A DNA stretch of 64,000 bases from Pachysolen tannophilus NRRL Y-2460 (Eukaryota), in the NCBI GenBank assembly GCA_001661245.1, contig KV454012.1:888848-952847 (forward strand). The letters run 5' to 3'. Positions 14,380 through 60,834 of the stretch are shown here, piece after piece (positions within the stretch are counted from its first letter, which is position 1; each line of letters begins with the position of its first letter). Under the pieces are notes generated by a model. It saw only the letters and a program-made list of their open reading frames with translations. It was not told where the DNA came from and made no database searches. A program made the translations under genes and the position numbers.

Positions 14380-16824
14380 ATGAATTCTTTTGTCTCTTCT
14401 AAAGAAGGGTCACTGTTTTTGTCTCAATTATCAAATCATTCAATTTTTAAGAGGACCACTTCTGGATTACTGACTTTTAATGAAGATTCAAGTGATAATA
14501 ATATTAATAAAAAATTTTATAACAAGATAGTATCTAGAAATAATCATGAATTATTTATAGCTACTGAGAATACTATTAGATGTTGTGATATTAATAATGG
14601 CAATTCATACAAGATATTGGATATTCCAATTATAGATTTTGAAATTGAAAGATTATTATTGAATCAATCTGGTACTTTATTAGCTATATTTAATACTTTT
14701 AATTTAATTGTTTGTTCATTACCTTCACCTGGATTTATTAATTCAAATACAGATTCAAAAATTATTGAAGCTAATTTTTTCAAAATAGGTTCAATGTATT
14801 ATAAAGATACAAATGTTAAAATATTAAAATTTTTATGGAATCCATTATCAAAATATGATTCAAATTTAATAATTTTATCTTCTGATAATTTTATAAGATC
14901 TTTTGATTTAACTTTTTCATTTGAAACATCTCAATATGAATTAAATCTTTTAAATACTGGAAATCAATCTTCTTTTGGTTTGAATTTTGAAAAAAATAAT
15001 TTTATTGTTGATCCTATATCTATTTCATTTGGTTCAAATGATTTTAATAATCCTTCAGGATGTTTAACCTTGTATATATTTAATCAAGATGGTGATATTT
15101 ACAGCTTATACCCTTTTATGCCAACTTTTATAGCTGTTCCTAAAAAATTTGTGGAAATATTATTTAATGAAACTGCATTATTATTAGAAAATACAAAAAA
15201 TAATGATACTAAAAATTTATTAATAAGACAATTCAAATTCGTTTCATCATTATATAAACAATTGGATACAGCTCAATTAGAAATAAATAATAATTTACAA
15301 GAATTAGTCATAATTAAACCTCCTTTAGAATTTGAAAAAATAAATTTGATAATTCAAGGTTTTTATAAATTATCACCTTTCCCTGATATTTTATACAATT
15401 TTGAAGGTACTGACTTAATAAATGTTAGTTGTGGTGAAAATTTGGATTTACTTGTTGTAACTTGGTCAAATGGAGGTATATTATTATTATTACAAAATTC
15501 AAAATCAATAATGAGGTGGGAAAATGATGAAAGTGAAATTTCTAGTTATTCCAATTTTGATGATGACGAAGAAGATGAAACTAAATATGATCCAACACTT
15601 ATTTCACTTGAATACATAGAATTGGCTCAACAGAAATCATCTTCTTTTTCAAATATTTCATTGGTGCCTTTAAAAAACTCGAATTATAAATTTTATATAA
15701 ATATCAACAATTTAAAGTTGATACAATTAGAATTTTCTAAATGGGGTAAATTATTAAATGAGGCTATCTTAAGTAATAATACTGATTTATTTTTAAAGAT
15801 AACTTCGGCTCCATTAAATAGTGATTTGATGTTAATTTCTGGGGGAAATAATGATCAAAACCTTGACAAATTTGAAGGTTTAACTATTTTAATTGAAGAT
15901 GATAAGGAATTTATAATTGAATTCAGAAGTTCAAAAGTTAACATTATTGAAAAAGAATTAAATGAAAAACTGGAGAAAAATGAAAAGGATAAAATAAAAT
16001 TGAAAAGTGTGCCATCAATAGATAATTCAGATTCAAATAAATATTCCACTGATATCAAATATGAAAGTTTGTTATCAGGACCATTTGAAGAATTAAAACA
16101 ATTGTTAAGTTTGATTAATCATGAAAATCTTTCGAAAGGCACTAAATCTGGAGCAGATTTGAAATATCAATTATCTGCGACAGATGAAAAATCTTTACAA
16201 GTTTTAAATCAAATTTCTAAAAACTTGGTCCTTAAAAATATTATTAATTATCATAAATTTGGATTGAGTTTGTTGAACAGGTTATCATTACAACATGAGG
16301 AATTAACTTTGCAAATCAACAAGTTAAATGATCTTAATAAGAGTGGACATGATGCTCAAAGTCGAGCAAAATTAAGTGAGGCACAAGAAGAAAAATTAAA
16401 TAAATTAGTTTCAAAACAACAAGAATTAGATAAAAGAATTTCTAAATTATACGACCAATTAAACGAGTCTTTACAAAACTATAGTAAGACTAGAGGTAAA
16501 GATATACTGATTTCAAATGCTGAAAAAAAATGGTTTGAAGAACTAAACCAAATATCCAATCATGTTTCAGGACATTTAAACGCAAAAGTAGCTTCTTTAA
16601 CGAGCCAGCTGAGCTATATCAAAAGCTTCATATTAAGCAGTGGCTGGGCTGGTGATTATTTGAACAAAACTGAAAATTTGAAACAAAATTTTAACAGAGA
16701 ATATGATTGGAACACATTAATTAAAAAATTCAAAGAAAATGGGAAATTAATTGATTTTGTCGGTGAAACTTTGGACAATGAACTCGTTGACATTGAAGTT
16801 ATGATGAGGGATATGCATTTGTGA
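14380..16824 (+). CDS. NUP82: Nucleoporin Nup82
   Basis: N-terminal beta-propeller (LNQSGTLLA, WNPLS, LSSDNFIRSFDL, DGDIYSLYPFMP) plus C-terminal coiled coil with ISNAEKKWFEEL. Confidence 0.88.
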   Translation: MNSFVSSKEGSLFLSQLSNHSIFKRTTSGLLTFNEDSSDNNINKKFYNKIVSRNNHELFIATENTIRCCDINNGNSYKILDIPIIDFEIERLLLNQSGTLLAIFNTFNLIVCSLPSPGFINSNTDSKIIEANFFKIGSMYYKDTNVKILKFLWNPLSKYDSNLIILSSDNFIRSFDLTFSFETSQYELNLLNTGNQSSFGLNFEKNNFIVDPISISFGSNDFNNPSGCLTLYIFNQDGDIYSLYPFMPTFIAVPKKFVEILFNETALLLENTKNNDTKNLLIRQFKFVSSLYKQLDTAQLEINNNLQELVIIKPPLEFEKINLIIQGFYKLSPFPDILYNFEGTDLINVSCGENLDLLVVTWSNGGILLLLQNSKSIMRWENDESEISSYSNFDDDEEDETKYDPTLISLEYIELAQQKSSSFSNISLVPLKNSNYKFYININNLKLIQLEFSKWGKLLNEAILSNNTDLFLKITSAPLNSDLMLISGGNNDQNLDKFEGLTILIEDDKEFIIEFRSSKVNIIEKELNEKLEKNEKDKIKLKSVPSIDNSDSNKYSTDIKYESLLSGPFEELKQLLSLINHENLSKGTKSGADLKYQLSATDEKSLQVLNQISKNLVLKNIINYHKFGLSLLNRLSLQHEELTLQINKLNDLNKSGHDAQSRAKLSEAQEEKLNKLVSKQQELDKRISKLYDQLNESLQNYSKTRGKDILISNAEKKWFEELNQISNHVSGHLNAKVASLTSQLSYIKSFILSSGWAGDYLNKTENLKQNFNREYDWNTLIKKFKENGKLIDFVGETLDNELVDIEVMMRDMHL

Positions 16825-16956
16825 ATAAAATATAGTCATTTTCTACATACATTTTTATAATACCATGTTTAGCTTAAATCATTTACATTATTAACATCAA
16901 GAAAAAGAACAAATTTAAAAGAAAATAAAAAGACATAAAAAAAAAAATAAAAAAAA

Positions 16957-17418
16957 TTAAAAATCAGTGACTCTACCATTATATGCCCAATCTCCATGCC
17001 TTAAAGGTTCTTGCTTTGGACCACCAACTTCTCCCGTCAGAGGATTAGTTTCTCCTTGAAATTCTGGAATGGTTTTCAAATACTCTGGAGAAAATGCACC
17101 AATATCATTTTTCAAATTTGGTGTTGAATCATCTGAAGCTTGTTTACTAGAATTCGATTCCGCATTTGCCTGTGCATTATATTCTTCAATAGACAGCTGT
17201 GAATTTGCAATTTTCTGTAATCTTTCAAACTCTTCTTGTTCTTCTTCTGGTAATTTAGGAGGACCCACTGTATGTGTCATGAATGGGTTTTTCTTGGAAT
17301 TTTCAGATAAAAACGAAGGCTGAAACTTCTTGCTCGAATCATCTTTCAACTGCCTCAGCGACAAAGAAATGAATCTCTTTGAAATAAAATACTTCGAAAA
17401 CGTAGTTATTGATCTCAT
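16957..17418 (-). CDS. SDH8: Succinate dehydrogenase assembly factor 4
   Basis: GPPKLPEEEQEEFERLQK and C-terminal GEVGGPKQEPLRHGDWAYNGRVTDF. Confidence 0.95.
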   Translation of the reverse strand: MRSITTFSKYFISKRFISLSLRQLKDDSSKKFQPSFLSENSKKNPFMTHTVGPPKLPEEEQEEFERLQKIANSQLSIEEYNAQANAESNSSKQASDDSTPNLKNDIGAFSPEYLKTIPEFQGETNPLTGEVGGPKQEPLRHGDWAYNGRVTDF

Positions 17419-17757
17419 TCTTTTTGATTATAAATGATAAAATGATAACTAACACCTTTATATATATATATATATATATATATAATAGACGTTAAAAGGT
17501 TTTGAAATCATGGAAATATAAGGAAAAAACCAAAAAAAAATAAAAAGAAAAAAAAAGAAAAGATCGAAGCGGAGAAATTTTAATTTTCTCCGTTTTTCTT
17601 TTTTATTTCCTTTGTGGAGATTTTAGTTTTTGGAGAAGTTATTATTTTCTCCGAGGTAAACAAAAGAGAAGTCGCAGAAAACACATGTGTTTGCGAGTTA
17701 TATAAACTATTGACAATATAGCATATCGCAAAAGAGGAATAGGTAGATTGAGTTTTG

Positions 17758-20394
17758 ATGATGGTGTCCCGTTGGAGATGGAAAGCATTGGTGTTGGTAG
17801 TGATTGTTCAAATTCTTTCATTTTTTTTCTTTGTCAAAGGGTTTTTTCCAACAAAAGTTGTGCTACAAGGTAATGGTACTAATTATGTGGAACATTTGAA
17901 GAATGATGACCTGCTTTATGATAAACTTATATTCATGGTTGTTGATGCTATGAGAAGTGATTTTGTATTTTCTAATGATTCTAATATGCCTTTTGTTCAT
18001 AGTTTGATTAATGGGAACAAAGCAATTGGCTTCACGGCTTTTAGTAATCCACCAACTGTTACATTACCTAGATTGAAGGGTATCACTACAGGCTCTACAC
18101 CAAGTTTCTTGGACGCTATATTAAATATAGCTGAAGATGACACTTCTTCTACTTTGGGAGATCAAGATAGTTGGGTTAAAGAATTATATTTAAAAGGTAA
18201 AAATATAAATATGTATGGAGATGATACTTGGTTAAAATTATTTCCAAAATATTTTAGTAAAATTGATGGCACAAGTAGTTTTTATGTGTCTGATTTCACC
18301 GAGGTCGATAATAATGTAACCAGACATTTGGATGAAGAATTATCAAGTGGTGCTGATTGGGATGTCTTAATATTACACTATTTGGGCTTAGATCATATTG
18401 GTCATCAAGGTGGCCCGAAATCTTCAAATATGCCTATAAAACAATTGGAGATGGATGATATCATTAAAAGGATTTATGAAGAGCACCTTCTTAAAAATGA
18501 AAAAACATTGTTTGTGGTTTTAGGTGATCATGGAATGAATGAAATTGGGAATCATGGTGGTTCGTCAATAGGTGAAACAAGTGCAGCATTATTATTCATT
18601 TCTAATAATTTCCAAAAATTTGTTAAAAATGTTAAAGCTCCCTTATTGAATAATGAAAATTTTGAGTTTTACTCCAAAATTCAACAAATTGATATAGTAC
18701 CGACTTTAGCTTCTTTGTTGAATTTCCCAATTCCTAAAAATAATCTAGGTATATTAATAGAAAGTTTTAAACCAATTTTTGGAAACAACTTCATTAACCT
18801 GTTACTAGAAAATGCTTTCCAATTTAAAAACTTAATTGAAACATCGTTTGGTACGAAATTCGTCTCATTTGACGCGGATTCAGAATCTCCTAAGAATGAT
18901 TTTGAAAATTTTTCAAAACTTTGGTATGACATTGAAAATACACATAATGATGTGGTAAAAGCAGATCGTATTTATGAATTCATGAAAAAATGTCAACTGT
19001 ATTTGTCAAATTCTTCAACTAATTATAATTACTTTCAAATTTATACTGGGTTTGGAATATTTATTTTCACTTCGTTATTAATTGTAATTTATTACTTAAT
19101 ATCTTCATATAATACTGGTAATTTTTATTTGAGTATAGTTGGGATCTTATTTTCGTCCTTGTTGGCTTTATCGTCTGTTGGCTCATCTATGATCGAAGAA
19201 GAGTATCAAATCTGGTGGTGGTTTATAACTCTTTTTTTCACTGGGATCTTGTTCTATTTAAAGGCTTCAAACTTCACATCGCTGACCACTTTATTGGCTT
19301 TAAGATTGATTAGAGGTTGGAATAATTCTGGACAGAAGAACAACTTAGTTTCAAATTTAAAAATCTCCAAAATTTTAGGTGAAAATTTTTTAATAAACTG
19401 GGCTTTAGTTGGGATGGTGTACTGTTCTATTATTTATCTTGTTTGTAAAGGTGGACTTACGCACATTTTTAATTCTTCGGCACTATCATTTATATCGATT
19501 TTTTTGCTAGTTTCATTGAACTTTACAAATAAGTTGATACTTTCTTTTTTACAGGAGGAAAAGGATGTAAGTTATGAAAATTTTCCCAAAGTGTTCTTGA
19601 ATATAATACAGTGGACAGTTGATATTTTAGGTGTTGAAGATGTCAAAGATTGTTTAAACCCAATCTTTAAGCTATTTTACTTGACATTTTTTATTTTAAT
19701 AATTGGAAGAGTAGCATTTCAACTTATGACTAGAACCAAGATGGTGAACTTTCTTGGAAACGAAACTTCTATTTCTAAGGTAAGATCATTTTATTTCAAT
19801 GATTTGGCTAATATTTTAACATTACTTTTGTTAAATCAGACATCGCTAAAAAATATTCCATTATATTTACTCTTCATAATATTAAGACAAAACTACATTT
19901 CATTATTTAAAAGTTTGATTGTGGAAAAAAATATATTTAAAATTTCATTATTCTTAACGAGTCTTAACATATTTATGCAAAATTTTTCGTTCTTCAGTTT
20001 TGGTAACACAAATTCGCTTTCATCAATTGATTTAACTAATGCATTTAACGGTTTGTCAGAGTATAACTTACTTCTATGTGGAATCTTAACTTTTGTGGCA
20101 AATTGGTCAGGTCCCATATTCTGGTCCCTCAGCTTCTATTTGACTGTTTTATCTGAGTTTAACAAGGAGTTACAATTGTATAAATACGATTTATTATACT
20201 ATAAATTGTTAATTAGTTCAATGTTTTATTCCATTGTTGGATGTGGATTAATCGGTTCTTGCATTTTATTGAGATATCACTTGTTTATTTGGACCGTTTT
20301 TAGCCCAAAATTGTTATATTTCGGAAGTTGGTATGTCTTTATGAACTTTGGCGTTGATTTTATTTTATCTTTTGTCTTGATTTCTTTTTACTGA
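17758..20394 (+). CDS. GPI7: GPI ethanolamine phosphate transferase 2 (PIG-G)
   Basis: FMVVDAMRSDF, PPTVTLPRLKGITTG, LHYLGLDHIGH, GDHGM, C-terminal RYHLFIWTVFSPK; first ATG 17758 (S. cerevisiae name LAS21). Confidence 0.94.
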   Translation: MMVSRWRWKALVLVVIVQILSFFFFVKGFFPTKVVLQGNGTNYVEHLKNDDLLYDKLIFMVVDAMRSDFVFSNDSNMPFVHSLINGNKAIGFTAFSNPPTVTLPRLKGITTGSTPSFLDAILNIAEDDTSSTLGDQDSWVKELYLKGKNINMYGDDTWLKLFPKYFSKIDGTSSFYVSDFTEVDNNVTRHLDEELSSGADWDVLILHYLGLDHIGHQGGPKSSNMPIKQLEMDDIIKRIYEEHLLKNEKTLFVVLGDHGMNEIGNHGGSSIGETSAALLFISNNFQKFVKNVKAPLLNNENFEFYSKIQQIDIVPTLASLLNFPIPKNNLGILIESFKPIFGNNFINLLLENAFQFKNLIETSFGTKFVSFDADSESPKNDFENFSKLWYDIENTHNDVVKADRIYEFMKKCQLYLSNSSTNYNYFQIYTGFGIFIFTSLLIVIYYLISSYNTGNFYLSIVGILFSSLLALSSVGSSMIEEEYQIWWWFITLFFTGILFYLKASNFTSLTTLLALRLIRGWNNSGQKNNLVSNLKISKILGENFLINWALVGMVYCSIIYLVCKGGLTHIFNSSALSFISIFLLVSLNFTNKLILSFLQEEKDVSYENFPKVFLNIIQWTVDILGVEDVKDCLNPIFKLFYLTFFILIIGRVAFQLMTRTKMVNFLGNETSISKVRSFYFNDLANILTLLLLNQTSLKNIPLYLLFIILRQNYISLFKSLIVEKNIFKISLFLTSLNIFMQNFSFFSFGNTNSLSSIDLTNAFNGLSEYNLLLCGILTFVANWSGPIFWSLSFYLTVLSEFNKELQLYKYDLLYYKLLISSMFYSIVGCGLIGSCILLRYHLFIWTVFSPKLLYFGSWYVFMNFGVDFILSFVLISFY

Positions 20395-22027: not shown

Positions 22028-24346
22028 TTAACGTCTCTTATTCACAAACGAGACGTTTCTATTATTATTGACCCTGGAAACTTTCTTTGCCGGTTTAGGA
22101 CCCTCACTTTCCTTCGAATAAGGGTCAAATGATCTTTTCTTGTTTTTATCTTTATTTTTGTCCCTATATGATGATGATGGTTTGTCAGATAAGATTTTTT
22201 TTCCATCACGATAGTCAAAGACGTTTTGTTCAGTATCCTGTTGTTTTGAATTTGAATTATTCTTGCTATTATTGTTGTTTTTATTTTTTGACCGTAATAC
22301 GATGACCTCATTCGGATCAGTTTTATCTTCTTGCAAAAGAGGCTCCTTGATTTTCTCCTGTGATTCTTTTTTAAGTATTTTTTCTTCTTGGTCTTCATCC
22401 TCTTCTTCCTTGATTCCATTAACTTTTTCTGCAAGTAATTGTCTAATCAAAATTTCTTGCTTTTCAGATCCTTGTAATGCTTCACATACTTTGGAATGAC
22501 GTCCTGATATTTCAACCATCGAATTAATGATAACTTTATCATTATCATATTCAATTGACCAAGGAGACTTGAGATTATTTAAAAGCATATTTTGATGAAA
22601 AAGTTTAGAGTTCATAGACAATAAATTATTTTCGGTCTCTTTTAAAGAAAAATTTTTAGCTAATAGAACTTTGAAATCATTTTCTATTCTATTCACGAAA
22701 TTGAAATCGATTTTCTTATTTGGGTCTTCTTCCGTAAAATAACGATTTTGTTCAATACCTTTCATCAGTTCAATATCTTCCTCTTTTGCTTCCTCTAAAG
22801 CACGCTTAATAATTTGAGAAATTTCTCTAGCATTAATACGAACATAATCTGAAATGAAATTACTTGATGCTAAAACACCAGGAGCATCAGTTGGGCAAGA
22901 TGCTGCTAAAGAAACCAATAACTGATTTGGCATCACGTATCTTGTAGATTCATCATCTCTTCTTGCTAATTTGTCTCTCCATTCATATAATGCAACAACA
23001 ACAGGCTTTGTATTTAAAGGTAAATTGTATTGATACATCATTGATCCCCAAGGTTCAGTTTTTTCGTTTAAAGGACTCACCACCAAATTATTAGGTTTAT
23101 CCGGTCTATATTTAGTATACTCAAATCTTCTCCTAGCAACATTTCTTGAGTTAAACAAAACTTCTTTTAGTTTGTCTTCCTTTATTAAAACATTTTTCAA
23201 CTGGTCAAAAATGTACAACAAAAAATGTGTATCGGATCGAGCATAGGACATCATTGCGTCAGAGAGCGGTCTGACTCTCCAGTCAGCCAACTGATATTTT
23301 TTAGATGTTTTAAAATTAGCAAACTTTTCCAAAAGATAAGCCAAACTATGTTTGGGAAGACCTAGTAATCGAGAAGCATGGTAACTGTCAAATAAACTAA
23401 CAACGTAAAGACCTAAATCACGTTGTAACCATATAATATCCATAAATGCACCGTGAAAAACTTTAATTATAGCTGGATCAGTGAAAATTACATTCAATAC
23501 TTCTAAATCGTTTCGTAATGCTAAGGTATCGATTATCCAATCTTTTTCACGGTTACTAATCTGCATAAGACAAACTAAACCGTAATAGGTTCTATAGTCA
23601 TGATGCTCCAAATCTACAGCAATTTCCGTTGAACTTTTCAAACTTTCAATCATTTCATTCAATTTTTCAACAGTGTCGATCCATACTGGTCTGTTTTCTT
23701 CCCATGACTTTGAAGGAACAGGTTCCAGAATTTTCAATATGCTTTCAGGGTAATCTTGTTGCAAAATTTCTGTCTCGTAAGGATGTTTATAGTGTTCTGG
23801 TTCATTTTCTGTACCAGGTACCAAATTAAATACATCTTCAAACGGTACTATAGAGTTTGGTTTGGAAGTGAGAAGAGGTCTAAATGGATGGTTTTCAGAG
23901 TTATCAATCGGAACCTTGAATTCTAATTGAGGTTTCTGTATTCTTTTTCCTGTAGATTTATGAGTTGGATCTGTCATAGTTAAATCTTCTAAATAAGAAA
24001 ATTTTTCTTTTTCATTGCTGTTAAGTTTTGACGATTTATAGTCATCAAAGGCAATATCAGATTTTTCAAATAACGAGTCCAAAACATCACTAATATCTCT
24101 CCATGAATGCTCTATATTTTCTTTCCCGTATTTCACTGTATCAACATCTCCTTCCTCAACATTCTGCATTAACTCATTAATAAGATTTAATATTCTTTTA
24201 GATCCATTATCAATAGAACTAGAAAGATCAGTATCCAATGACTTATAGAATTTAACATCCTGAGCAGCAAGTGCTGAAGAAGCTCTCACCGTACTCAAGA
24301 GCTTCCGAAGCACATCTCCAACTAATTCGCTCTGTTCTTCGGACAT
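22028..24346 (-). CDS. RRP6: Nuclear exosome 3'-5' exoribonuclease Rrp6
   Basis: PMC2NT N-terminus, DEDDy exonuclease (IAVDLEHH, YQLADWRVRPL, YARSDTHFLL), HRDC (WRDKLARRDDESTRYVMPN); ATG 24346. Confidence 0.96.
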   Translation of the reverse strand: MSEEQSELVGDVLRKLLSTVRASSALAAQDVKFYKSLDTDLSSSIDNGSKRILNLINELMQNVEEGDVDTVKYGKENIEHSWRDISDVLDSLFEKSDIAFDDYKSSKLNSNEKEKFSYLEDLTMTDPTHKSTGKRIQKPQLEFKVPIDNSENHPFRPLLTSKPNSIVPFEDVFNLVPGTENEPEHYKHPYETEILQQDYPESILKILEPVPSKSWEENRPVWIDTVEKLNEMIESLKSSTEIAVDLEHHDYRTYYGLVCLMQISNREKDWIIDTLALRNDLEVLNVIFTDPAIIKVFHGAFMDIIWLQRDLGLYVVSLFDSYHASRLLGLPKHSLAYLLEKFANFKTSKKYQLADWRVRPLSDAMMSYARSDTHFLLYIFDQLKNVLIKEDKLKEVLFNSRNVARRRFEYTKYRPDKPNNLVVSPLNEKTEPWGSMMYQYNLPLNTKPVVVALYEWRDKLARRDDESTRYVMPNQLLVSLAASCPTDAPGVLASSNFISDYVRINAREISQIIKRALEEAKEEDIELMKGIEQNRYFTEEDPNKKIDFNFVNRIENDFKVLLAKNFSLKETENNLLSMNSKLFHQNMLLNNLKSPWSIEYDNDKVIINSMVEISGRHSKVCEALQGSEKQEILIRQLLAEKVNGIKEEEDEDQEEKILKKESQEKIKEPLLQEDKTDPNEVIVLRSKNKNNNNSKNNSNSKQQDTEQNVFDYRDGKKILSDKPSSSYRDKNKDKNKKRSFDPYSKESEGPKPAKKVSRVNNNRNVSFVNKRR

Positions 24347-24443
24347 TCTCTTTGACTCAGCTACCAAATTGCTAACGAAGTAATCAACTTCGCTTCAACT
24401 TTAGTTAAAATAAGTTATTAAGAAAAAAAACATTTAAAAAGTG

Positions 24444-24479
<36 letters not shown>

Positions 24480-24499
24480 AAAAAAACTAAAAAATAAAA

Positions 24500-27400
24500 A
24501 CCTTTTTGATATTTCATAAACTACTTTTATTATTTTTATATGCACTACTACTCCTAGATCAAAATTCAAATCCTCAGACAGTAAATAGCTGATGGCAAGT
24601 ACAATTCTCTAGACTGCCTCAAACTCTTTATCCTTCTCTGCTACTTGTATAAATTTTCCAGATACTAATTTCTTCCCATTCATATGGCTCAAATATCTTC
24701 TAGAAAATAAAATTTTACTTTACTGCACTTGACCTACTTGTCAGTTTTCTTGATATGATCATATATAAAAATTAATGATAATACAGCTTAAATTCTGCAT
24801 CTTTTTTCAGCTAATTTCTGCTGACTACATGCAGATATTTTATATCAAACTTGTAAAATATTACATCACTTCGAACAATTGCAATTGCACTTGCTGTTCT
24901 AAAATAAAAAGAAAAATCACTTTACTCATTTTTTATTTTTGAAGAATAATTTTCAAGACCAACAAACGCCCATAAAGCAGGTTTTAAATAAAAATTAATT
25001 TTCGCATATTCATAATCATTATAGTAAAAAGCTCTTTATTCTATACTTGACACAGCTCAAATCAGTTGCAGCTCGAAACTCATACTACCTTCTCAATTAA
25101 ATTCTTATATTAAAATAAAAAATCTAAAACTACTGTTAACGTCAGGCCTCAATTTATTGCATTCTTTTCATCTAATTAACTTTACAAATTACGGTTAGAA
25201 GCACCTGAACAAACTAGTGTAGATTTATTATTGAGAGAAGGGAAAAATATAGTGAAATATTGTTTGTTTAGCACAAATGCTTACGAGGTTGATTCTGACT
25301 TAACTAATTATAAGAGTTCAATAAGATCGTATTACTTTCTTCACTAAATCTTTTCAAAAAGAAGAAACCTCATCTGTACTACGGTAAACTGCTCTTATCT
25401 ACTCTAACTTGTCTTTAACTTGTATCATTTCCTCTCAGTACGATAATAGGTTAGGTTATCAAAATCCTAATCTCATTCCATCAAGAAACACCATCAGCTT
25501 TAATGTCAATTCCTATTACTCTCTCGATATTAAATGATTCAGGCACCTGTAAATCTAAATTTCTTTTTCTTAATTTTTTAATTATAATAAACAACTTTCT
25601 ATCTCAAATCCGCATCTAAATAAAGGCTGAACTCCTTAATGCATCAGCATTTCTTTCCGGGCTCGTTCTGCAGTATAGCTCTAGTAGTTGACCACAGGAT
25701 CCAAACTTTTAAGTCCAACACCAAAAATTCATCATTGCTTGTCTCTGATATCAATAATAATACACGAAACCTTATTCAACAAATATAACTCGAGAAGAAA
25801 AAAAAGCAATCAAATAAAAACAAAAGGCTAAATAGATGAATCATAATAAAAGGTTATCATTTTTATTCTGATTATGCGACGTAAATAAGAAAAGGAGTTG
25901 ATCACAATATTTCACAAAACAATGGTTAGTTTCTTCTCAATAATGTACGATCTAAGTATAGGCGAAATATGAAAACAAAATAAGTTAACTAACTATCTTC
26001 AAAAAACAAAATACGTTCAACATAGGGCTCCTAACCTCTGCGACAATTAATACAAATAGGATTCTAATATATGATAATTGTAAAGAGATTGTTTAACTTT
26101 TTAAGATTCTTTCAGTAAAATCAATAAAGGAATACCATAATATTGAAATTAGATCCTTCCCTTTAATTATGGAAATCTCTATTCGTTCGCATTTTCCTAC
26201 CTCAATCTAATTCACCGGGAGGGGAGAAATTCTACTACTGCTTCTTTGTTATGCTATTTTAAAAGTACTGCTATTACTAAGTTTCCATCTGTATTGTAAA
26301 GAGATACCATTGAAAGGTAACGATAAAATTTATTTCTTAAGGACAAATCGCTAGTATCGGTAGTCCCTTACTGAGTAATACTACGTGAATGTATTCGAAA
26401 CTTAGCGTTGGTTGTTCCTAACAAGATCTAAGATTGCAAGATTGCAAGCTGTGATAGGCAGTCATTATTTTCTAAATTGTTTCAACATCATCAAATCATC
26501 TACTATTTTTTTCAGTAAAAACATTTATGTTAAATGTAATCTAATACATCTTTACATTTTGTGATTGAATTTGTTGGAATAATTGATCAAGTTAAACTTT
26601 CAGTTACCTTGAAAAACATTAAATATGTTTAGAGAGAATATTTAATTTTTTAAATAACAATATTAGCAATATTGCGTTCAAAACAAAAGTCTTCCCAGAA
26701 CTATTCCGAAGATTATGCAAAATACAGGTTATTTTGATTTTCATCTTTAAAGCAAAAGAGAAAAAAAGGGAAATAGAATATTAGTCTAGTATTGAAAAAA
26801 AAAATTTAGATAGTTACTCGATAGTCACGAATTACTCGATAGTCACGATGTTATCATACAGCGAATTAATAGAACTTTTATCATTATCCGGATCATGTCC
26901 AGTTGACTGATCTGGAAAGAAAAAGCTGGAAATTTCATCGCTTAATCACCACTAATTATTGCTATGTTAAAATCAGGTTTATATTACAGCTTACGATAAA
27001 AGATAACAAAATCAATATTTTAGGAAGTGATTACTCATTTATATAAAGGAAGGGCTATTCGAGTAAACGATAATAGTATTTATTCTATTCCATTCATGGT
27101 CCTCGCCTCAGCAGTAATTTTTCAATTTTAAATAATCTTATGTTAGTAGTTCTCAGTTTCTTTTATTGAGGTAATACGAAATGGTAATACTTTTTCCATA
27201 TTTTTTTCATTGCAGAGAATAAATTCCAAAAGTTGTTTATAGAAAACATCTTTCTTTGTTAATGTAGGTAATACTAATGTAGATAAAGCCAAGTCGACTA
27301 AGAAGAGCCTTGGTCATTCTGTAAAAAAATTACTTTAGCGGTGCGCAGAGAAAGATTAACAAAGTTCGCCACATTACCTTTTTACATCAATCCACTTCCG

Positions 27401-30400
27401 AAATAGTCATTAATAAAAGATCACTTTAATCCGTTAGCCTCTCGTTGTTGTCCACTGCGGATTATTTGTGGTATATGAAAGCCTGATTCCGGAAATGTGT
27501 GTACACGAACAAGATATAGAGTAATTACATGTTGTGTTTAATACCTATTGTTCATTTTCTGGAATAGCGGCATCTCCGTGTGACCTCATCAATCAGAATA
27601 GCTATATATTCTACTGTCCTGTGAGCCTAAAACCAATTGGTATCTTGAACCCAAATCAAGCACTAAATGAATAATCAAGCGCCAACTTACAGCTCAGCAT
27701 AGCATATATTCTTTACTACTATCGCAAACAATGCAGATAATGTCAGATAAAGTTGTGTAAAGTAAATGCATACTAGTATGCTCGTTCTGCAGCATTGAGT
27801 ACGAGACTGTCTGACAAGGTGTTTCAGATTATCTCAATAAAATTAGTTAGTTATATGCTTTTAACTGAATAATGTTAACTAACATTTTTTCTTCTTAACT
27901 ACAAAAAATTTCTCCAACAATTGGATTTAGTTTCTACTGTTCTATTAACAATGTTTATCACTTTTTCATTTGTGTCTTTTACTTCAACTATTCATAAACT
28001 ATTCCTCCTTAAATTTGATTTTTACTTAAAGCCAAACGGGAATATTCAGAGAAAGATATTTCAATTCTTCATGGATTCCAAATATGGAGATTGATGTAAA
28101 TTTCTTTAGAGGTGAGAAGAAATTGTTTCGAAAGAACGTATTAATATTGTGTATCGCACCTTCCTTCCAAATAATTTGTTTTCCAATTTGGGTTAAGTCT
28201 ACATTTAGAAATATAAAAAGTTTAAAGGTTACAAAAAAAAAGAAAGAAAGGAAAAAAAAAAAAATGAGGAGGTTATTAATCAAATAGATAAATAAATCTT
28301 GGCTATTTAGAATGGAGGAAAAGAAATGAAAAGAAAAGAGAACAAAAGAAAAAAAAAATCAGTAGTACAGATCATTCTATTGCCAATGTCTTGCCAAATT
28401 TCAGATTGAAGTGAGGTCAGCGTTATTACTGGTCTTGAATTGTTAAAAGACTAATCTTCCAATCTAGTTAAATGATTGACTCGCTTACTTGCCTAATTGA
28501 AACTAGTTTTAATCCATTTACTCCAAACAAAAAAATTTTGTGCTTGCATTCAGGTCTAGAAATAATTCTTCCAAGAAAATTTCAAAGTTATTAGAGACTC
28601 ATGTCTTCTTTAGTATAATATTTGAAAAGTTTAAGGTATCTATAATTTTATTGTTTAGGCGTCATATTTGATTAATGCTTTAACACTGTGACTTTGTAAA
28701 CTCTGCAGCCTACAGATTGTTTAAGCTCTGTGATTTGATACCAGTGACAAGAGTAAAAGAAATCTTCCTATGTATGAGATGCTATTTACAGCGTAATTCT
28801 TTGACATTAACAAATAGAAGCGGTTAGGAGCACGGGCAAAACTTTAGATATAAAGGGAACTCTGTTTTTACATAATTTCTAGAAGTAAAGTGACAAGATA
28901 TGAGATAAACAGAATTAATGTATGTTGCCGAGGAATTTGATTATAATATATCAATGATACGAGCTATATCTAAAAACGAGCATTAGCGTCCACAAACACA
29001 TGATTGAATTAGAAAATTAACGGTCTTTTCTAGTATGCTAAATAGAAAAACTTACAAATGAAAGCACTTGACGTAATTAGTTTCAGAAACAGTTTTTTAG
29101 CAATTCACAAGTTCAGTCAGTAATGTGACAGCTTAGGGTGAATTGTTGCGTGGTTGAGTCTGTAGTTGTTTTCCTATGAGTTTCATGCATTCATTAGCAA
29201 TTGGTTTAAATAAAAATAATAACTTTATTCAATTAATCCGAAAGTTATTTTTCATTCTATGAAATAAAGCTTATTTCTCATTAATGTAGTTTTGGTGCAC
29301 TTGAAATGTTTGTCTAATTCAAGTGATACATTATTAAAAATAGTTTTCAACGGTTTTTTTCGCTCATTTTCTAGTAAAACATGTGTAATTCTTCGATAGA
29401 GTCAGGTTTTCCGATTTAATAGTAACTAGATGATGGTGTGTTACATATAAATGCTGGAAGATAAAATTTATAGCTCTTTTACTCAAAATTCATGTTTTTA
29501 GTAATATCAACGAACAGACGCTTAATAATGCCTCGATGTATTTTTAACACAAGAATATAGTGGAGTTTTCTTTTAACGAAATTCTAAAAATTTTTGTGGG
29601 TTCAAAGAGGCTAATAACCTTCAAAATTTTATAACAGCTTATTTATTTCACCAAGATACGACATAAAACAATAATCATTTGTAAATACATATTAATGCCG
29701 TAGCTACTGGTGACATTCCGCGAACATAAAGTATTTTAGTGTTTTTTATTTTGAAATCGTATTCCAAAAAGACTAATGTAAGTCTAATAAGTTTTAGATT
29801 TCGTGACAACATTCGTATTATGAAGTTTTCGGGGAGGGTTTTTTTTTTGTACTGATTTTAAGGCTTGATAATGCAGGAAGGTTTTGTTTTCACCCAGAAG
29901 TTAATGTAAGTATAATACAGCTTTTGGGGTAAAAGATTCTTCGAAGATGTCTGAAATTCATGTTTCAGAGGAAGATAATTTGCTTTTCCGTGAAAATAAG
30001 AGTATGGTGTTTTGAGTAAGATAGTTGTGATATACAGCAGCAAAACTTTGTAAAACAAGCTCTCAAGAAATAATCGCTAAGTCAAAAGTACTTATTAATT
30101 TAAGATGGGCTTTCAATAAATTTGATTCATCTTAATAAAATGAAAGATGACAAAAAGGATATTTGTGAGATTCAAATTATTTTTTGGTAAGCTGAGCTCT
30201 TACTGCATTTCAAACTCATTTATTATACATAAATACAATACGTATATACAAAGTTAAATAGGATATCAGTCACAATCTTTGAAAGCAACCATTATCGCTC
30301 CATGATGATATAATGAATTATGAGATTTTCAATTATTAGACAGAAAGAAACAAATAATAGTTGTGTGATGCTGACTCTTTTGAGCCCAAAAATTTTACCA

Positions 30401-31100
30401 TTGGAAATGATTTTTTTTTAACATAAAAGCAAACATAAAGCTGATGTTTAATGTTACCGAGTTCTTTTTCACTTGGACATCTAAAACCGTTTTAGGAGGA
30501 AGAATGCGTCTACGTGGAAATTTTGATTAATTTATAGATATATTTAAACTTTCAATACAGTAAATAAATCAAAACTATTCAGGAAAAGATGAATTGACGA
30601 TTAATCGTATTCATCTGTCGCTGCTGTAGTTGTTATTATTCTTTGCTTAAAACAGTTTCTGAATGAATTATGCAACCATTTCTCTACCCTTTAATCCATC
30701 ATTTGTTAAATCAAATATAATATCAAGGTTAGATTTCCTAAAAAAGCTTAACTAATATGCATAAAAAAGTTAAGTTGGTTGGGTATAAAAATCATTGAAA
30801 GAATTTTTAGCTGGCAGGAATTTTTCGCTGTTAAAACTAATCGAAAGTCATATTAAAATAGTAATTTATAAAATCACTTTTTTGTTAAACTTTTCAGAGA
30901 TCAGAGAATACAAGTTTTAAAATCAATAAAATATTAGATAGATTATATTTTTGATGAATCGAAAATGAACGAACGATGAAGTCAAATTAAAAAACAGCAA
31001 ATTAGAAATTAAACTGATAAAATTATACGTATTTTATATTATAAATTAAAAGCTTTTTTCCAGAATTCTTAAACTTTGCCTTAGGAAAAATTACAGTCTA
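24500..31100. other. Gene-free block; candidate regional centromere / replication origin
   Basis: No credible ORF over ~6.7 kb in a gene-dense window, few homopolymer tracts, GC-skew reversal, flanked by RRP6 and ADP1. Confidence 0.6.
26814..26848. repeat. Tandem duplication of TTACTCGATAGTCACGA (18-bp period)
   Basis: Read directly. Confidence 0.9.
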
Positions 31101-31142
31101 TAAATGTCAAAGTTTTTTTTCTTGCTTTTTGATTCTGTTTAC

Positions 31143-34100
31143 TTATCTTTTCTCGTAAACGAAATAGTGCAAACTTAGATATCCCAAAATCAAGAATGTT
31201 GCTAACATAGCTAATAACCAACAAATATCAAACCACAACGCACCAACGTCAAAACCAAAAGTACTCAAGATGACAGCACCTGGAACTTGGATATCCAAAC
31301 CGTATTTCCTTTCTTTTAAAATCAACGATTGAACCTCATTGACAATTAATGCTTCGTATCCGTAATGGAAAACAGAAAGTGTCTGTAGCCACTCAATTTG
31401 GATGGGTATTGTTTCCTGATTTACAAAAAGGCCAGCGAATAACAATGAGAATAATAATATCAATACACCAACAAGTGTGGCATTCCCTGGTTCCTTTATC
31501 AATATACCGACTATTAAAATCTCCACAGCTGTGGTCAAATTAAACAAGACTAGGATCAATAAACATTTAGTGAAGCTATCATCATTCATATTTAAACCAA
31601 CCAATGGATAAATAATTCCAGCTAAAATAATTGGCGGTAAAACCCTTAGCGGAAGAACATCACATATAATCTTACTCGTATAATAGCTTAATGGATTGTA
31701 ATAGTTATTTGACCTTTCTCTGATAAACACAATTCTTTCTATTGAGAAAGAATGTAATCCCGTTAATGTAGAAAACCCAAAATAGGTTAATAGAAAGAAA
31801 AATAATCCTAACCTATTTTGAAAGCCGCTGATATCATTCGTGACATTATAGTAGAGATAACCAACAAAGAGTGCAGCAGCAATGGATAATGCATAATGTG
31901 TCAATAATAATTTTGGATTACGATAAACATTTTTGAAAGTTCTTGAAGATAAAATGGCCAATTGACTTAAAAGTCCAGCTTTCTTATAATTGGGCTTTGA
32001 TTTGAATACAGAAACCGGTCCATTACCACGACCACCAGATTCAAATGATAGTTCTGAATTATTTTGAAATTGTTCAAAATCAGCATTTAATGCTTTAATT
32101 TCAGACAATACTTCTTCAGCCAAAAGAGAATTTTTAAAAGCAAGATTGACTTTCTTTTTCGCTGTAATTTCATTTGATACCACTGGTTTACCATTCCCAG
32201 CCAGTTGCTGCAGTTGACGCAGGACTTCTGGGTGGCTGTAGTCATCCCTGTGAACAGCGAAATGTGCCCATTCCCTTGTGTTATTATCATCTTCACTATT
32301 AGATGTAGGAATAACTCTATGTATATCTTGATCGTAATTAGCATTTTCCTCATCTACATGAGGCTCATCTTGTGATGTAATAGCAAAATCCTTTACTTCA
32401 GATTCCCACGAAGTTATATCAATAAGATAGTCTGCAATGTTATATCCAGGTGGACATTTGAAACCAATGTTAGAAAAAAATTCATTACACATTAGCATAT
32501 CACCAGAATAGACGGTTTCACCTTGACTTAACAAGATTAATTTATCAAACATTGCAACTATGTTACTTCTAGGTTGATGGATTGTAAAAATAATAGTTCT
32601 TTCATGGTCATGTGAAAGTCTCACAAGACAGTCAATAACATTTTTAGCATTGAAAGCATCTAATCCAGATGTTGGTTCATCTAAAAACAAAATTGAAGGG
32701 GATGTCACTAATTCACATGCAATTGCAACTCTTCTCTTTTCACCACCAGAAATTCCCCTTTCAAAGTCTGATCCTATAACTTTATCCTTGATATTATTAA
32801 TTCTCAACTCTTTTAAAATTTCTAAAACTTTCATTTTTTTAGAGTTGGTTGACATGTTTCTTGGTAACCTCAATAAAGCACTGTTCAAAACCGTTTCATA
32901 AACGGTCAAAGTAGGAATAAGATAATCTTCTTGATCCACAAACCCAATCATTTTTTGAAAACTTTGCAAATCCTGCTTCGATTTTATTTTTTCTCCATTG
33001 ACGTATAAGTTAGCAGTTTTTTCTCCACTCTTTACCTTTGCGGACAAAATATCCAATAACGTTGTCTTACCAGCACCAGAACCACCCATTATAGCTAAAC
33101 ATTCACCTGGTTTCACTATACCAAATGAATTATTTAAAATTAATCTACCATTAACAGTATAATTTACGCTATCAAAGGAGAATGTAACAGGAGCATGATT
33201 ATCAAAAAAGCCATCGTTATCATCATCACCGGGTAATGATATATAACCCACAGAGCTGAATAAAGGAGATCTCTTTATTCCTGAAATCGACAGCACAAGA
33301 ACCAACAATACTGAAATTAATGAACCAGCAATGACAAAAAGCTGTTTCCAAGAATATTTAGGTTTACCTGGAATATCAAACCCTGGAATTTCACTATAAT
33401 GCATACATTCACCAGAAGCACAATGTAAAGTAATATAGGGATCCCCAAAAACCGAAGTTATAAGATCATTCATACTTGGTTCTGAAAATTTACATTCTTT
33501 TTTGTCAACATCGCATGAAAAATCACCGGGACCTCTTATTGTTTCAGTTAAAAAATCAGAAATATCTATGGAACCTGCTTCACCACATAACATCTTGTCT
33601 GGAATACATTCACAACGAGCATCTTCACACTTATAATGTGTGTAATTTGTATCCAAATTATATTCGAATTTACATTTATCTAAATCACAATAAAAACTTT
33701 CATTTTCCAGAATCCAAAATTGGAAATTACAAGCTTCCAATGTCTTATTACATGAAAATGTAACTTGTGGTTTTTTACCATCCAATATTTCCACAATTTT
33801 TTTATTGGTGACATCACACATCTGATGAAATTCATTTACTATAATTCCTTGTTTATAACAGGTTCCTTTCAAACCACCTGGTAATAAAGCATCACATACA
33901 GAATCTTCCAAACACAAGTTACAATTTACACCTCCCCATCCATCTTTACACTTACATGATTTCTCATCAGAGCCTCTAACAGGTCTCCTGTTCTGTCCAT
34001 CCGACAAACCCCCACATAATGGCTCAGAGCAATCATTGCCACCAAAACCTTCACGGCATTCGCATAACCCTGTATACTCATTACACATTGAAAATTGTTT

Positions 34101-34310
34101 GCATTCAAAATTTGGTAATTTACAATCAAAACATGGTGGACAAGTTCCTGTGTTATCAGTTGCTTCCACAGATTCCGAAATATCCAATTCATTTAAATGA
34201 AAACTTGGAGTCCTATATTCGCTTCCAAATTGATCACAATTCAGTATCCGAATAAGATTCGCTATAAAGTATAATGATAATAATGCCAAACGGGAACGGT
34301 TAATCAACAT
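31143..34310 (-). CDS. ADP1: ABCG-type half transporter with Cys-rich EGF-like N-terminus
   Basis: Signal peptide, CPPCFDCKLPNFEC EGF-like region, Walker A GGSGAGKT, ISGGEKRR, LFLDEPTSGLD, ABC2 TM domain; ATG 34310. Confidence 0.95.
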   Translation of the reverse strand: MLINRSRLALLSLYFIANLIRILNCDQFGSEYRTPSFHLNELDISESVEATDNTGTCPPCFDCKLPNFECKQFSMCNEYTGLCECREGFGGNDCSEPLCGGLSDGQNRRPVRGSDEKSCKCKDGWGGVNCNLCLEDSVCDALLPGGLKGTCYKQGIIVNEFHQMCDVTNKKIVEILDGKKPQVTFSCNKTLEACNFQFWILENESFYCDLDKCKFEYNLDTNYTHYKCEDARCECIPDKMLCGEAGSIDISDFLTETIRGPGDFSCDVDKKECKFSEPSMNDLITSVFGDPYITLHCASGECMHYSEIPGFDIPGKPKYSWKQLFVIAGSLISVLLVLVLSISGIKRSPLFSSVGYISLPGDDDNDGFFDNHAPVTFSFDSVNYTVNGRLILNNSFGIVKPGECLAIMGGSGAGKTTLLDILSAKVKSGEKTANLYVNGEKIKSKQDLQSFQKMIGFVDQEDYLIPTLTVYETVLNSALLRLPRNMSTNSKKMKVLEILKELRINNIKDKVIGSDFERGISGGEKRRVAIACELVTSPSILFLDEPTSGLDAFNAKNVIDCLVRLSHDHERTIIFTIHQPRSNIVAMFDKLILLSQGETVYSGDMLMCNEFFSNIGFKCPPGYNIADYLIDITSWESEVKDFAITSQDEPHVDEENANYDQDIHRVIPTSNSEDDNNTREWAHFAVHRDDYSHPEVLRQLQQLAGNGKPVVSNEITAKKKVNLAFKNSLLAEEVLSEIKALNADFEQFQNNSELSFESGGRGNGPVSVFKSKPNYKKAGLLSQLAILSSRTFKNVYRNPKLLLTHYALSIAAALFVGYLYYNVTNDISGFQNRLGLFFFLLTYFGFSTLTGLHSFSIERIVFIRERSNNYYNPLSYYTSKIICDVLPLRVLPPIILAGIIYPLVGLNMNDDSFTKCLLILVLFNLTTAVEILIVGILIKEPGNATLVGVLILLFSLLFAGLFVNQETIPIQIEWLQTLSVFHYGYEALIVNEVQSLILKERKYGLDIQVPGAVILSTFGFDVGALWFDICWLLAMLATFLILGYLSLHYFVYEKR

Positions 34311-34485
34311 TATCAAAATTTACAGATAAAAAATTATACTGTAAAAACAATCCAAGTTGAATGAATTGTTATCAAATCTATAATGAAAGCAACCAGCAAC
34401 CAAAAATAAATTCTTATCTAATTAAGCCAAACTTCTTTAAAAAAATGTATTTATTATTTAAATAAATAATAATTACAATCAATAA

Positions 34486-48936: not shown

Positions 48937-48944
48937 TGGGTGCA
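48937..48944 (-). promoter_or_regulatory. Aft-type iron-response element TGCACCCA
   Basis: Exact motif ~510 bp upstream of the FET3 ATG; single copy. Confidence 0.45.

Positions 48945-60806: not shown

Positions 60807-60834
<28 letters not shown>
60807..60834. repeat. (TTAG)7 microsatellite
   Basis: Read directly. Confidence 0.95.

What the first reader, a model, noticed from the sequence alone, without database searches (positions are those of the whole stretch)
24500..31100. ~6.7 kb gene desert: candidate regional centromere
Seen: every other spacer in the window is about 2 kb or less and full of poly(dA:dT) runs, while this block has no credible ORF and few long homopolymers apart from a central cluster at 28233-28360. 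No CDEI-II-III, long inverted repeat or LTR was visible by eye. Known: in S. cerevisiae RRP6 (YOR001W) is the gene next to CEN15 and ADP1 (YCR011C) lies close to CEN3; several non-Saccharomycetaceae yeasts have unique-sequence regional centromeres of a few kb. Inference: a repeat-free regional centromere with ancient centromere linkage on both flanks.
Basis: partly seen in the sequence, partly recalled or inferred. Interest (0 to 1): 0.8.

Follow-up and report, generated by a model that had tools for sequence, protein, structure and literature searches.

The report
Candidate unique-sequence centromere, unproven
A 6.8-kb stretch with no genes, no repeats and an odd base composition lies between the RRP6 and ADP1 genes of an AT-rich budding yeast; it is most likely that chromosome's centromere, but this rests on sequence features and gene neighbourhood alone.

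Summary
Window 24347-31142 (6796 bp) has no credible ORF, and the next largest spacer is 2101 bp. No Pfam relic, coding signal, tRNA, Rfam RNA, inverted repeat, LTR or tandem array was found. Assemblies from two studies hold the stretch as single-copy DNA.

Its composition differs from ordinary spacers. GC is 0.290 against 0.249, with a third as much poly(dA:dT). GC skew flips from negative to positive (0 of 2000 shuffles reach it). Long intergenic region, skew flip and raised GC together are what Koren et al. 2010 reported for Candida albicans centromeres. However, a divergent gene pair in this window gives an equally large flip.

RRP6 is the first gene beside the centromere in Saccharomyces and Eremothecium. 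Two recent papers report that centromere neighbourhoods persist across yeast orders.

The organism appears to belong to the CUG-Ala clade, and I found no described centromere for that clade.

Best reading: a featureless, epigenetic regional centromere (about 0.55). No Cse4, Hi-C, RNA or whole-genome data could be consulted. The rivals are a non-centromeric non-coding region and fully decayed genes.

The parts
22028..24346 (-). RRP6 (nuclear exosome 3'-5' exonuclease), left flank; its 5' end faces the desert
   Evidence: Pfam PMC2NT, DNA_pol_A_exo1 and HRDC. Homologues are named RRP6/YOR001W, and the Eremothecium names are ACL001C and HCL001C.
24420..24501 (.). Poly(dA) tract directly upstream of RRP6; likely the RRP6 promoter's nucleosome-free element (inferred) and not part of the unexplained core
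   Evidence: A-runs of 8, 29 and 12 bases. TRF period-1 and period-14 arrays. Logan contigs break here.
24347..31142 (.). ORF-free, single-copy, repeat-free interval: the candidate regional centromere
   Evidence: no ORF; none of the 64 stop-to-stop frames of at least 35 aa has a Pfam hit below E 0.01; no coding signal; no repeats; no tRNA or Rfam RNA; single copy in 4 runs of 2 studies; GC 0.290 against 0.249.
24347..26200 (.). C-rich arm (GC skew -0.20 to -0.34 on the plus strand)
   Evidence: 250 G against 377 C over 24347-26500.
26200..28040 (.). Centre with roughly neutral skew; the cumulative GC skew reaches its minimum at 28037. Inferred site of the strand switch (origin) and the likeliest Cse4 core
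28228..28361 (+). Homopurine (A/G) low-complexity tract about 190 bp right of the skew minimum; possibly a nucleosome-excluding or origin element (inferred)
   Evidence: eight GAAAA repeats. Contigs break here.
28362..30500 (.). G-rich arm (GC skew +0.04 to +0.23)
   Evidence: 439 G against 359 C over 28361-31142.
31143..34310 (-). ADP1 (ABCG-type permease with a Cys-rich N-terminal domain), right flank; its 3' end faces the desert
   Evidence: Pfam ABC_tran and ABC2_membrane. Homologues are named ADP1; the nearest named are Kuraishia, Ogataea and Komagataella at 63-65% identity.

Best explanation
The interval is the centromere of its chromosome. It would be a small regional centromere of unique sequence, of the 'featureless' kind known from Candida albicans.

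Proposed mechanism (inferred, not shown): a few kb of Cse4 (CENP-A) nucleosomes are kept epigenetically somewhere within 24.5-30.9 kb, most likely around the skew-neutral centre at about 26.2-28.0 kb. No defined motif, inverted repeat or retroelement is involved. A constitutively early-firing replication origin near the skew switch and the homopurine tract would have imprinted opposite G/C asymmetry on the two arms.

The flanks would reflect ancient centromere neighbourhoods. RRP6 comes from ancestral CEN6 and ADP1 from the CEN1 region. An exchange of chromosome arms at centromeres would have brought them together.

Shown here: the region is ORF-free, single-copy and repeat-free; it has distinct composition and a skew flip; and the flanking genes are RRP6 and ADP1. 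Inferred: Cse4 binding, origin activity and the arm exchange.
For: 1. Size and emptiness. The 6796-bp gap compares with at most 2101 bp for the 22 other spacers. This lies within the 4-18 kb of C. albicans centromeres and the 3.7-7.9 kb intergenic regions at W. anomalus Hi-C peaks (passages of PMC12711049).

2. It is not a hidden or recently dead gene.
- None of the 64 frames of at least 35 aa has a Pfam hit below E 0.01.
- All 217 windows of 300 nt score at most -0.041 in coding potential. The 5th percentile of genes is 0.086, and the desert mean equals that of the other spacers.
- tblastx against 71 fungal ADP1 loci gave 0 hits.
- No long ORF appears with TGA=W.

3. It is unique sequence. 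There are no internal repeats or inverted repeats. Contigs from 4 runs of 2 studies cover 24503-28227 and 28362-34474 with 0 mismatches at the same depth as the flanks. The only listed extra piece over the desert is 47 nt long.

4. Composition.
- GC is 0.290 against 0.249 for the pooled other spacers (Mann-Whitney p = 1.3e-4).
- GC exceeds the GC3 of all 23 genes, which range 0.107-0.281.
- The genes next to the desert have higher GC3 (0.24-0.28) than most distal ones.
- The GC skew flips from negative to positive by 0.337, which 0 of 2000 block shuffles reach.
- Koren et al. 2010 (PMC2924309, passages) report exactly this for all C. albicans centromeres: a long intergenic region, a negative-to-positive GC skew and elevated non-coding GC.

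5. Neighbourhood.
- RRP6 homologues carry the names YOR001W, ACL001C and HCL001C, meaning the first ORF from the centromere (the nomenclature rule is recalled).
- Anc_CEN6 corresponds to S. cerevisiae CEN13/15 and A. gossypii chromosome 3 (Table 1 of PMC3141009).
- Centromere-linked genes stay linked across orders, including Pichiales, and arm exchanges at centromeres are common (PMC12711049; PMC13017519; PMC7263194).
Against: There is no functional or genome-wide evidence. Cse4, Hi-C and RNA data were unavailable, and the rule of one such region per chromosome could not be tested.

The skew flip is not specific. A 6796-bp window starting at 12001, which spans a divergent gene pair, gives 0.396, more than the desert. 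Transcription or relics of divergent genes could therefore produce it.

The composition is intermediate between genes and spacers, which is also what old decayed coding DNA would look like.

The structures known in the neighbouring order Pichiales are all absent: inverted repeats, Ty5 clusters and GC-poor troughs with a motif.

The two flanks map to different ancestral centromeres. ADP1 is only loosely centromere-linked in S. cerevisiae. In 71 fungal ADP1 loci, none has RRP6 within 10 kb, and none of the 13 yeast-like loci has an ORF-free gap above 2.4 kb.

No other gene among the window's 23 ORFs is one I recognise as centromere-adjacent. That judgement rests on recalled gene names.
Confidence: 0.55

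Rival explanations
1. A non-centromeric non-coding region. One version is two long non-coding transcripts (or an unusually long regulatory region) running divergently from the homopurine tract near 28.2-28.4 kb. Another is a strong isolated replication origin without kinetochore function.
For: In this window coding strands are G-rich. A divergent gene pair gives a skew flip (0.396 for the window starting at 12001) at least as large as the desert's 0.337. The cumulative skew minimum (28037) lies next to a promoter-like A/G tract. Koren et al. also found two internal non-centromeric origins and telomeric sites with similar skews in C. albicans.
Against: The skew is strongest at 24.3-26 kb and near zero at 26.2-28 kb, which is not what a single transcript starting at 28.2 kb predicts. 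No Rfam family matches even at E up to 1. The flanking genes are a housekeeping exonuclease and the 3' end of a transporter, neither of which should need kilobases of control DNA (inference). This reading does not explain the RRP6 coincidence.
Confidence: 0.25
2. A graveyard of one or more lost genes, for example a divergent pair, decayed beyond recognition but not yet deleted.
For: GC (0.290) and the poly(dA:dT) share (4.0%) lie nearer to genes (0.314; 2.0%) than to spacers (0.249; 11.8%). The skew flip has the sign and size of a divergent gene pair.
Against: None of the 64 frames has a credible Pfam hit. No 300-nt window reaches even the 5th percentile of genic coding potential. The longest open frame is what shuffles give. 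tblastx against 71 ADP1 loci gave nothing. Compact yeast genomes usually delete dead DNA, which is general knowledge.
Confidence: 0.12
3. An ancient, fully degraded retrotransposon or LTR cluster. Such a cluster might or might not itself mark a Ty5-type centromere.
For: Ty5-like clusters mark centromeres in many Pichiomycetes and Saccharomycetes and are inferred to be ancestral (PMC13017519).
Against: There is no RT, integrase, gag or protease signal and no direct repeats of LTR type. No other copy at 80% likeness or more appears among the genome's contigs, apart from a 47-nt low-complexity piece (that table was cut, with 39 short pieces not shown).
Confidence: 0.05
4. An assembly artefact: a chimeric join or a collapsed region.
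For: The window has N gaps elsewhere (9286-9657). Logan contigs do not bridge the two low-complexity tracts.
Against: Contigs from two studies reproduce 24503-28227 and 28362-34474 exactly. The second contig runs from inside the desert through the whole of ADP1, and depth is uniform. One of the two studies may be the source of the window, so the independence is partial.
Confidence: 0.02

Closest known systems
Candida albicans / C. dubliniensis small regional centromeres (Sanyal 2004; Koren 2010, PMC2924309)
   Same: A gene-free region of 4-18 kb with unique sequence and no motif, inverted repeat or retroelement. GC skew switches from negative to positive, and GC is raised relative to other non-coding DNA.
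   Different: It is in a different class-level lineage (CUG-Ala clade, not Serinales). Cse4 occupancy and early replication are unknown here. The AT-skew reversal is weak (+0.037 on the left half, +0.006 on the right).
Wickerhamomyces anomalus and Hanseniaspora menglaensis centromeres (Hession 2025, PMC12711049)
   Same: A large intergenic region sits at the centromere (3.7-7.9 kb in W. anomalus). The H. menglaensis centromeres are described as 'featureless'. Location is inferred from conserved flanking genes.
   Different: W. anomalus carries arrays of a 21-bp motif. No tandem array is present here, and motifs shared between chromosomes could not be tested.
Kuraishia capsulata centromeres (Morales 2013, PMC3879985), in the nearest order with mapped centromeres
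   Same: A gene-free region of 2-6 kb, one per chromosome, without inverted repeats or retroelements.
   Different: Those are GC-poor troughs (36-39% against 45.7%), and five of them carry a 200-bp motif. Here GC is higher than in the other spacers.
Komagataella phaffii / Pichia kudriavzevii inverted-repeat centromeres and Ogataea polymorpha Ty5-cluster centromeres
   Same: Total size of a few kb to about 10 kb and absence of genes.
   Different: No inverted repeat and no LTR or retroelement trace is present.

Membership tests
Small regional unique-sequence (C. albicans-type) centromere | Cse4/CENP-A enrichment over a few kb | not testable with these tools
   No ChIP data. Only DNA assemblies were listed for this sequence.
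Small regional unique-sequence (C. albicans-type) centromere | Exactly one such locus per chromosome; Hi-C clustering with the other centromeres | not testable with these tools
   No whole genome is held for the window.
Small regional unique-sequence (C. albicans-type) centromere | Gene-free region of several kb | tested here: met
   6796 bp without an ORF, Pfam relic or coding signal.
Small regional unique-sequence (C. albicans-type) centromere | Unique sequence without repeats or a shared motif | tested here: met
   no repeats; single copy among the genome's contigs at 80% likeness or more; the table was cut.
Small regional unique-sequence (C. albicans-type) centromere | GC skew switching from negative to positive, with raised non-coding GC (Koren 2010) | tested here: met
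   Flip of 0.337, reached by 0 of 2000 shuffles. GC 0.290 against 0.249. This is not specific, because a divergent gene pair gives 0.396.
Small regional unique-sequence (C. albicans-type) centromere | Little or no transcription | not testable with these tools
   No RNA run was available.
Centromere at a conserved ancestral location | Flanking genes are centromere-proximal in other orders | tested here: inconclusive
   RRP6 is the first ORF from the centromere in S. cerevisiae and two Eremothecium species (names; Table 1). ADP1 shows only loose linkage. None of 71 ADP1 loci holds RRP6, and none of the 13 yeast-like loci has a desert. Positions relative to the mapped centromeres of Pichiales could not be looked up.
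Inverted-repeat centromere (K. phaffii, C. tropicalis, P. kudriavzevii) | A pair of kb-scale inverted repeats around a central core | tested here: not met
   The longest inverted pairs are 20-41 nt poly(A)/poly(T) or chance matches. blastn with word size 7 finds only poly(A).
Ty5-cluster centromere (O. polymorpha, S. stipitis, D. hansenii) | Retroelement ORF relics and LTRs | tested here: not met
   None of the 64 frames has retroelement domains. No LTR-like direct repeats. Single copy.
Point centromere (CDEI-CDEII-CDEIII) | CDEI, an AT-rich spacer and a CDEIII core | tested here: not met
   0 matches to TCACRTG-N70-100-CCGAA in the window. The motifs were recalled from memory.
GC-poor-trough centromere (K. 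capsulata, C. lusitaniae, Y. lipolytica) | GC content locally lower than the surroundings | tested here: not met
   The desert's GC is above the other spacers and above the GC3 of all 23 genes. The neighbouring genes have the higher GC3 values.

The most novel reading that the evidence does not exclude
This would be the first centromere recognised in the CUG-Ala clade (order Alaninales). It would be a featureless, epigenetically specified centromere of the C. albicans type that arose or persisted outside the Candida lineage. It would sit where neighbourhoods of two ancestral centromeres (Anc_CEN6 through RRP6, Anc_CEN1 region through ADP1) were joined by an arm exchange. [quoted passage not shown] It would also show that the GC-skew and early-origin signature is not peculiar to Candida.
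Probability: 0.35. Interest if true: 0.65.

Novelty: new member of a known kind. Interest (0 to 1): 0.5.

Why it matters
Centromere structure changes quickly among budding yeasts, while centromere location seems to be kept. Both 2025-26 studies that argue this (PMC12711049, PMC13017519) give no centromere coordinates for the CUG-Ala order in the parts I could read. My three literature searches on this point found no description of one.

A mapped centromere here would add a missing order to that picture. It would test whether 'featureless' centromeres with a replication-skew signature evolved more than once. It would also give a candidate stabilising element for plasmids in a xylose- and glycerol-fermenting yeast group; that application is my own inference.

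As it stands this is one in-silico candidate at one locus. It is suggestive and cheap to test, but not a discovery.

Tried and rejected
Whole genome: none is held. The largest-desert-per-chromosome test, motifs shared between chromosomes and the kinetochore gene repertoire could therefore not be examined.

Expression: no RNA holder was listed among 7 runs, so nothing can be said about transcription.

Laid contigs: stretches 24432-24502 and 28228-28361 are not covered (repeats skipped), and three of the four runs have no cover beyond about 34.9 kb. These are limits of the contigs, not findings.

Hidden RNA genes: no tRNA. Rfam at gathering threshold gave 0 over the window, and Rfam at E up to 1 gave 0 over 24000-31500.

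I kept to the ORF-wise scan.

Mitochondrial insert: reading TGA as Trp gives no frame above 116 aa inside the desert.

Bacterial-type promoter and terminator scan: 42 sites against 39 expected; irrelevant to a yeast.

Comparative loci: one metagenome scan with an ADP1 alignment gave 71 loci. None holds RRP6 or any other window gene except WD40 look-alikes. The 13 yeast-like loci I mapped (chosen from the 71 by identity of 52-63%) have no gap above 2.4 kb.

Literature: supplements of PMC12711049 (3 files) and PMC13017519 (8 files) do not place RRP6 or ADP1 relative to centromeres; the only hits are RNA-seq rows. Figures, which carry the gene maps, are not held. Riley 2016 (PMC5024638) is not held. 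Lynch 2010 gave no RRP6 information.

Earlier findings of this scan: three look-ups, nothing returned.

GC3 trough test: there is no trough. The opposite trend was seen.

One script failed on a division by zero and was corrected.
Full report
**What is there**

The window is AT-rich yeast DNA, about 30% GC, carrying 23 ORFs of at least 150 aa. Pfam names most of them:
- Left of the finding: GPI2, TAF5, RTG2, PAF1, a BRCT protein, NUP82, a DUF1674 (SDH8-like) protein, a GPI ethanolamine-phosphate transferase, a REI1-like zinc finger and RRP6.
- Right of it: ADP1, pyruvate carboxylase, an AP-complex mu subunit, a multicopper oxidase, an acyl-CoA synthetase, a beta-mannosyltransferase, carboxypeptidase Y and CHS7.

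Between RRP6 (22028-24346, minus) and ADP1 (31143-34310, minus) lie 6796 bp with no ORF. The other 22 spacers measure 130-2101 bp.

**The organism**

The database's own translations of RRP6 and ADP1 carry Ala at all 8 CTG codons of the two genes. In alignments of 80 homologues each, Leu is the commonest residue at only 1 of those 8 columns. The nearest named ADP1 relatives are Kuraishia, Candida boidinii, Ogataea and Komagataella at 63-65% identity. The nearest RRP6 relative is only 53% identical.

This places the organism in or near the CUG-Ala clade (order Alaninales: Pachysolen, Nakazawaea, Peterozyma), sister to Pichiales. That placement is an inference. The gene lies on a contig of 2,193,613 bp.

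**Is the desert empty?**

- Stop-to-stop frames of at least 35 aa number 64. None has a Pfam hit below E 0.01, and the weak hits are unrelated bacterial or phage families.
- I trained a codon-usage log-likelihood on the window's genes against its other spacers. It gives genes a mean of 0.283 (5th percentile 0.086), other spacers -0.190, and the desert -0.192. The maximum over the desert's 217 windows is -0.041.
- The longest open frame, 110 aa of poly-Phe/Leu-type low complexity on the strand opposite the homopurine tract, is what shuffled sequence gives (89.8 ± 16.0).
- Reading TGA as Trp opens nothing.
- There are no tRNAs. No Rfam family matches at gathering score over the window or at E up to 1 over the desert.
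- There are no inverted or direct repeats beyond poly(A), no tandem arrays and no point-centromere-like pattern.

**Is it real and single-copy?**

Five runs from two studies hold 0.99 of the sampled words. One of the studies may be the source of the window. When laid, their contigs cover 24503-28227 and 28362-34474 with 0 mismatches. The one difference is a 1-base longer A-run at 26794. Depth is like that of the flanks.

At 80% likeness or more, the only other listed piece over the desert is 47 nt at 28362-28408 (that table omits 39 shorter pieces). So the DNA is unique in the genome as far as these contigs show. That argues against LTRs, transposons or a long motif shared among chromosomes.

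**Composition**

The desert is not like the other spacers.
- GC is 0.290 (0.296 for 24550-30900) against 0.249 pooled. For 500-bp windows the means are 0.293 and 0.257, with Mann-Whitney p = 1.3e-4.
- A/T runs of at least 6 take 4.0% of it, against 11.8% in spacers and 2.0% in genes.
- Its GC exceeds the GC3 of every gene in the window (0.107-0.281). The genes nearest to it (GPI7-like 0.276, REI1 0.242, RRP6 0.259, ADP1 0.248) have higher GC3 than most distal genes. The region is therefore a local GC rise, not a GC-poor trough.

GC skew on the plus strand changes along the interval:
- -0.20 to -0.34 over 24.3-26.0 kb
- about 0 over 26.2-28.0 kb
- +0.04 to +0.23 over 28.0-30.5 kb

The best split gives a right-minus-left difference of 0.337, which 0 of 2000 shuffles of 100-bp blocks reach. 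The cumulative skew is lowest at 28037, about 190 bp left of the homopurine tract at 28228-28361.

**How this compares with known centromeres**

Koren et al. 2010 (PMC2924309; I read passages) report a common pattern for all eight C. albicans centromeres. They lie in long intergenic regions with a GC skew that changes from negative to positive, an opposite and weaker AT skew, and elevated GC relative to other non-coding sequence. The authors attribute this to a constitutive, earliest-firing origin. A genome scan on these criteria recovered the eight centromeres plus telomeric sites and two internal origins.

The desert shows the length, the skew flip and the raised GC. The AT-skew reversal is weak.

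The caveat is important. In this window coding strands are G-rich, and a 6796-bp window starting at 12001, which spans a minus-strand gene followed by a plus-strand gene, gives a flip of 0.396. Transcription-linked asymmetry, or relics of a divergent gene pair, could give the same picture.

**Neighbourhood**

Homologues of the left-flank gene are named RRP6/YOR001W. In Eremothecium they are ACL001C and HCL001C. In those naming systems the number counts ORFs outward from the centromere; this rule is recalled.

Table 1 of Gordon et al. 2011 (PMC3141009) equates ancestral CEN6 with S. cerevisiae CEN13/CEN15 and A. gossypii chromosome 3. It equates ancestral CEN1 with CEN3/CEN14. ADP1 is YCR011C (recalled), roughly the eleventh ORF from CEN3. 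The two flanks therefore belong to different ancestral centromere neighbourhoods.

Three papers bear on this:
- Hession et al. 2025 (PMC12711049; abstract, sections 11 and 15, and passages) show that centromere locations are conserved among Saccharomycetales, Saccharomycodales and Phaffomycetales while structures change. Exchanges of arms between centromeres recur, and W. anomalus has a 3.7-7.9 kb intergenic region at each Hi-C peak.
- Haase et al. 2026 (PMC13017519; passages and Supplementary Data 3) report that centromere-linked genes of Saccharomycetales remain centromere-linked in Pichiomycetes and Saccharomycetes with Ty5-cluster centromeres.
- Ola et al. 2020 (PMC7263194, passages) find inter-chromosomal breaks enriched at centromeres.

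A centromere flanked by genes from two ancestral centromere regions is thus a known outcome. Krassowski et al. 2019 (PMC6692504) used the same heuristic in Pichiaceae: a gene-free region together with S. cerevisiae centromere-adjacent genes. They also note that it is unclear how one MAT orientation is silenced in Pachysolen tannophilus.

**Evidence against, or neutral**

- I could not place RRP6 or ADP1 relative to mapped centromeres of Pichiales. The maps are in figures, which are not held, and the supplements do not mention the two genes in that context.
- In 71 fungal ADP1 loci from metagenomes, none has RRP6 within 10 kb. The 13 yeast-like loci I mapped have no ORF-free gap above 2.4 kb. 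tblastx of the desert against all 71 loci gave 0 hits. The ADP1 side of the linkage is therefore not general.
- The centromere structures known in the neighbouring order are not present: inverted repeats, Ty5 clusters, or a GC-poor trough with a 200-bp motif.
- No expression, ChIP, Hi-C or whole-genome information was available.

**Verdict**

The most likely explanation is a small, unique-sequence, epigenetically specified centromere with an associated origin (confidence about 0.55). The rivals are:
- a non-centromeric non-coding or origin region (0.25)
- fully decayed genes (0.12)
- a degraded retroelement cluster (0.05)
- an assembly artefact (0.02)

If it is a centromere, it is a new member of a known kind, the featureless C. 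albicans type, in an order for which I found no described centromere. The searches were 'Pachysolen + centromere' (11 papers), 'Alaninales + centromere' (2 papers), and 'Pachysolen tannophilus' with Hi-C, Cse4, gene desert or ORF-free (none of the 12 papers listed out of 483 holds the species name).

Noticed in passing
window 22028-24346 and 31143-34310 (CTG codons at RRP6 residues 207 and 527; ADP1 residues 23, 201, 340, 697, 700 and 703): The database's own translations give Ala at all 8 CTG codons. Homologues have Leu as the commonest residue at only 1 of the 8 columns. This points to the CUG-Ala genetic code (NCBI table 26). The window has 70 CTG codons among 13,528 codons.
   Followed up: partly
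window 9286-9657 (also single Ns at 9270, 9281 and 52561): A 372-N gap lies in the spacer between the ORF at 7990-9225 and PAF1. It is either an assembly gap or a withheld stretch. That spacer has the lowest GC in the window (0.112).
   Followed up: no
window 7990-9225 (+), 40276-42084 (-), 56826-57416 (-): Three ORFs of 411, 602 and 196 aa have no Pfam family at E up to 1e-5.
   Followed up: no
window 14380-20394: NUP82 and a GPI7/LAS21-like transferase lie close together, as YJL061W and YJL062W do in S. cerevisiae (recalled). A REI1-like and a DUF1674/SDH8-like gene are also near each other, as YBR267W and YBR269C are (recalled). These look like small conserved microsyntenies unrelated to centromeres.
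   Followed up: no
window 48430-50530 and 59742-61141: These are the spacers richest in poly(dA:dT): 22 and 16 runs of at least 8 bases, about 10-11 per kb. The first lies between the divergent multicopper oxidase and hydrolase genes.
   Followed up: no
window 26794: All four laid runs carry one more A in the A-run than the window does. This is a homopolymer length difference or an assembly error.
   Followed up: no
window 57705-59741: A beta-mannosyltransferase (BMT family, Pfam E 8e-87). As far as I recall, this family has a patchy distribution among yeasts.
   Followed up: no
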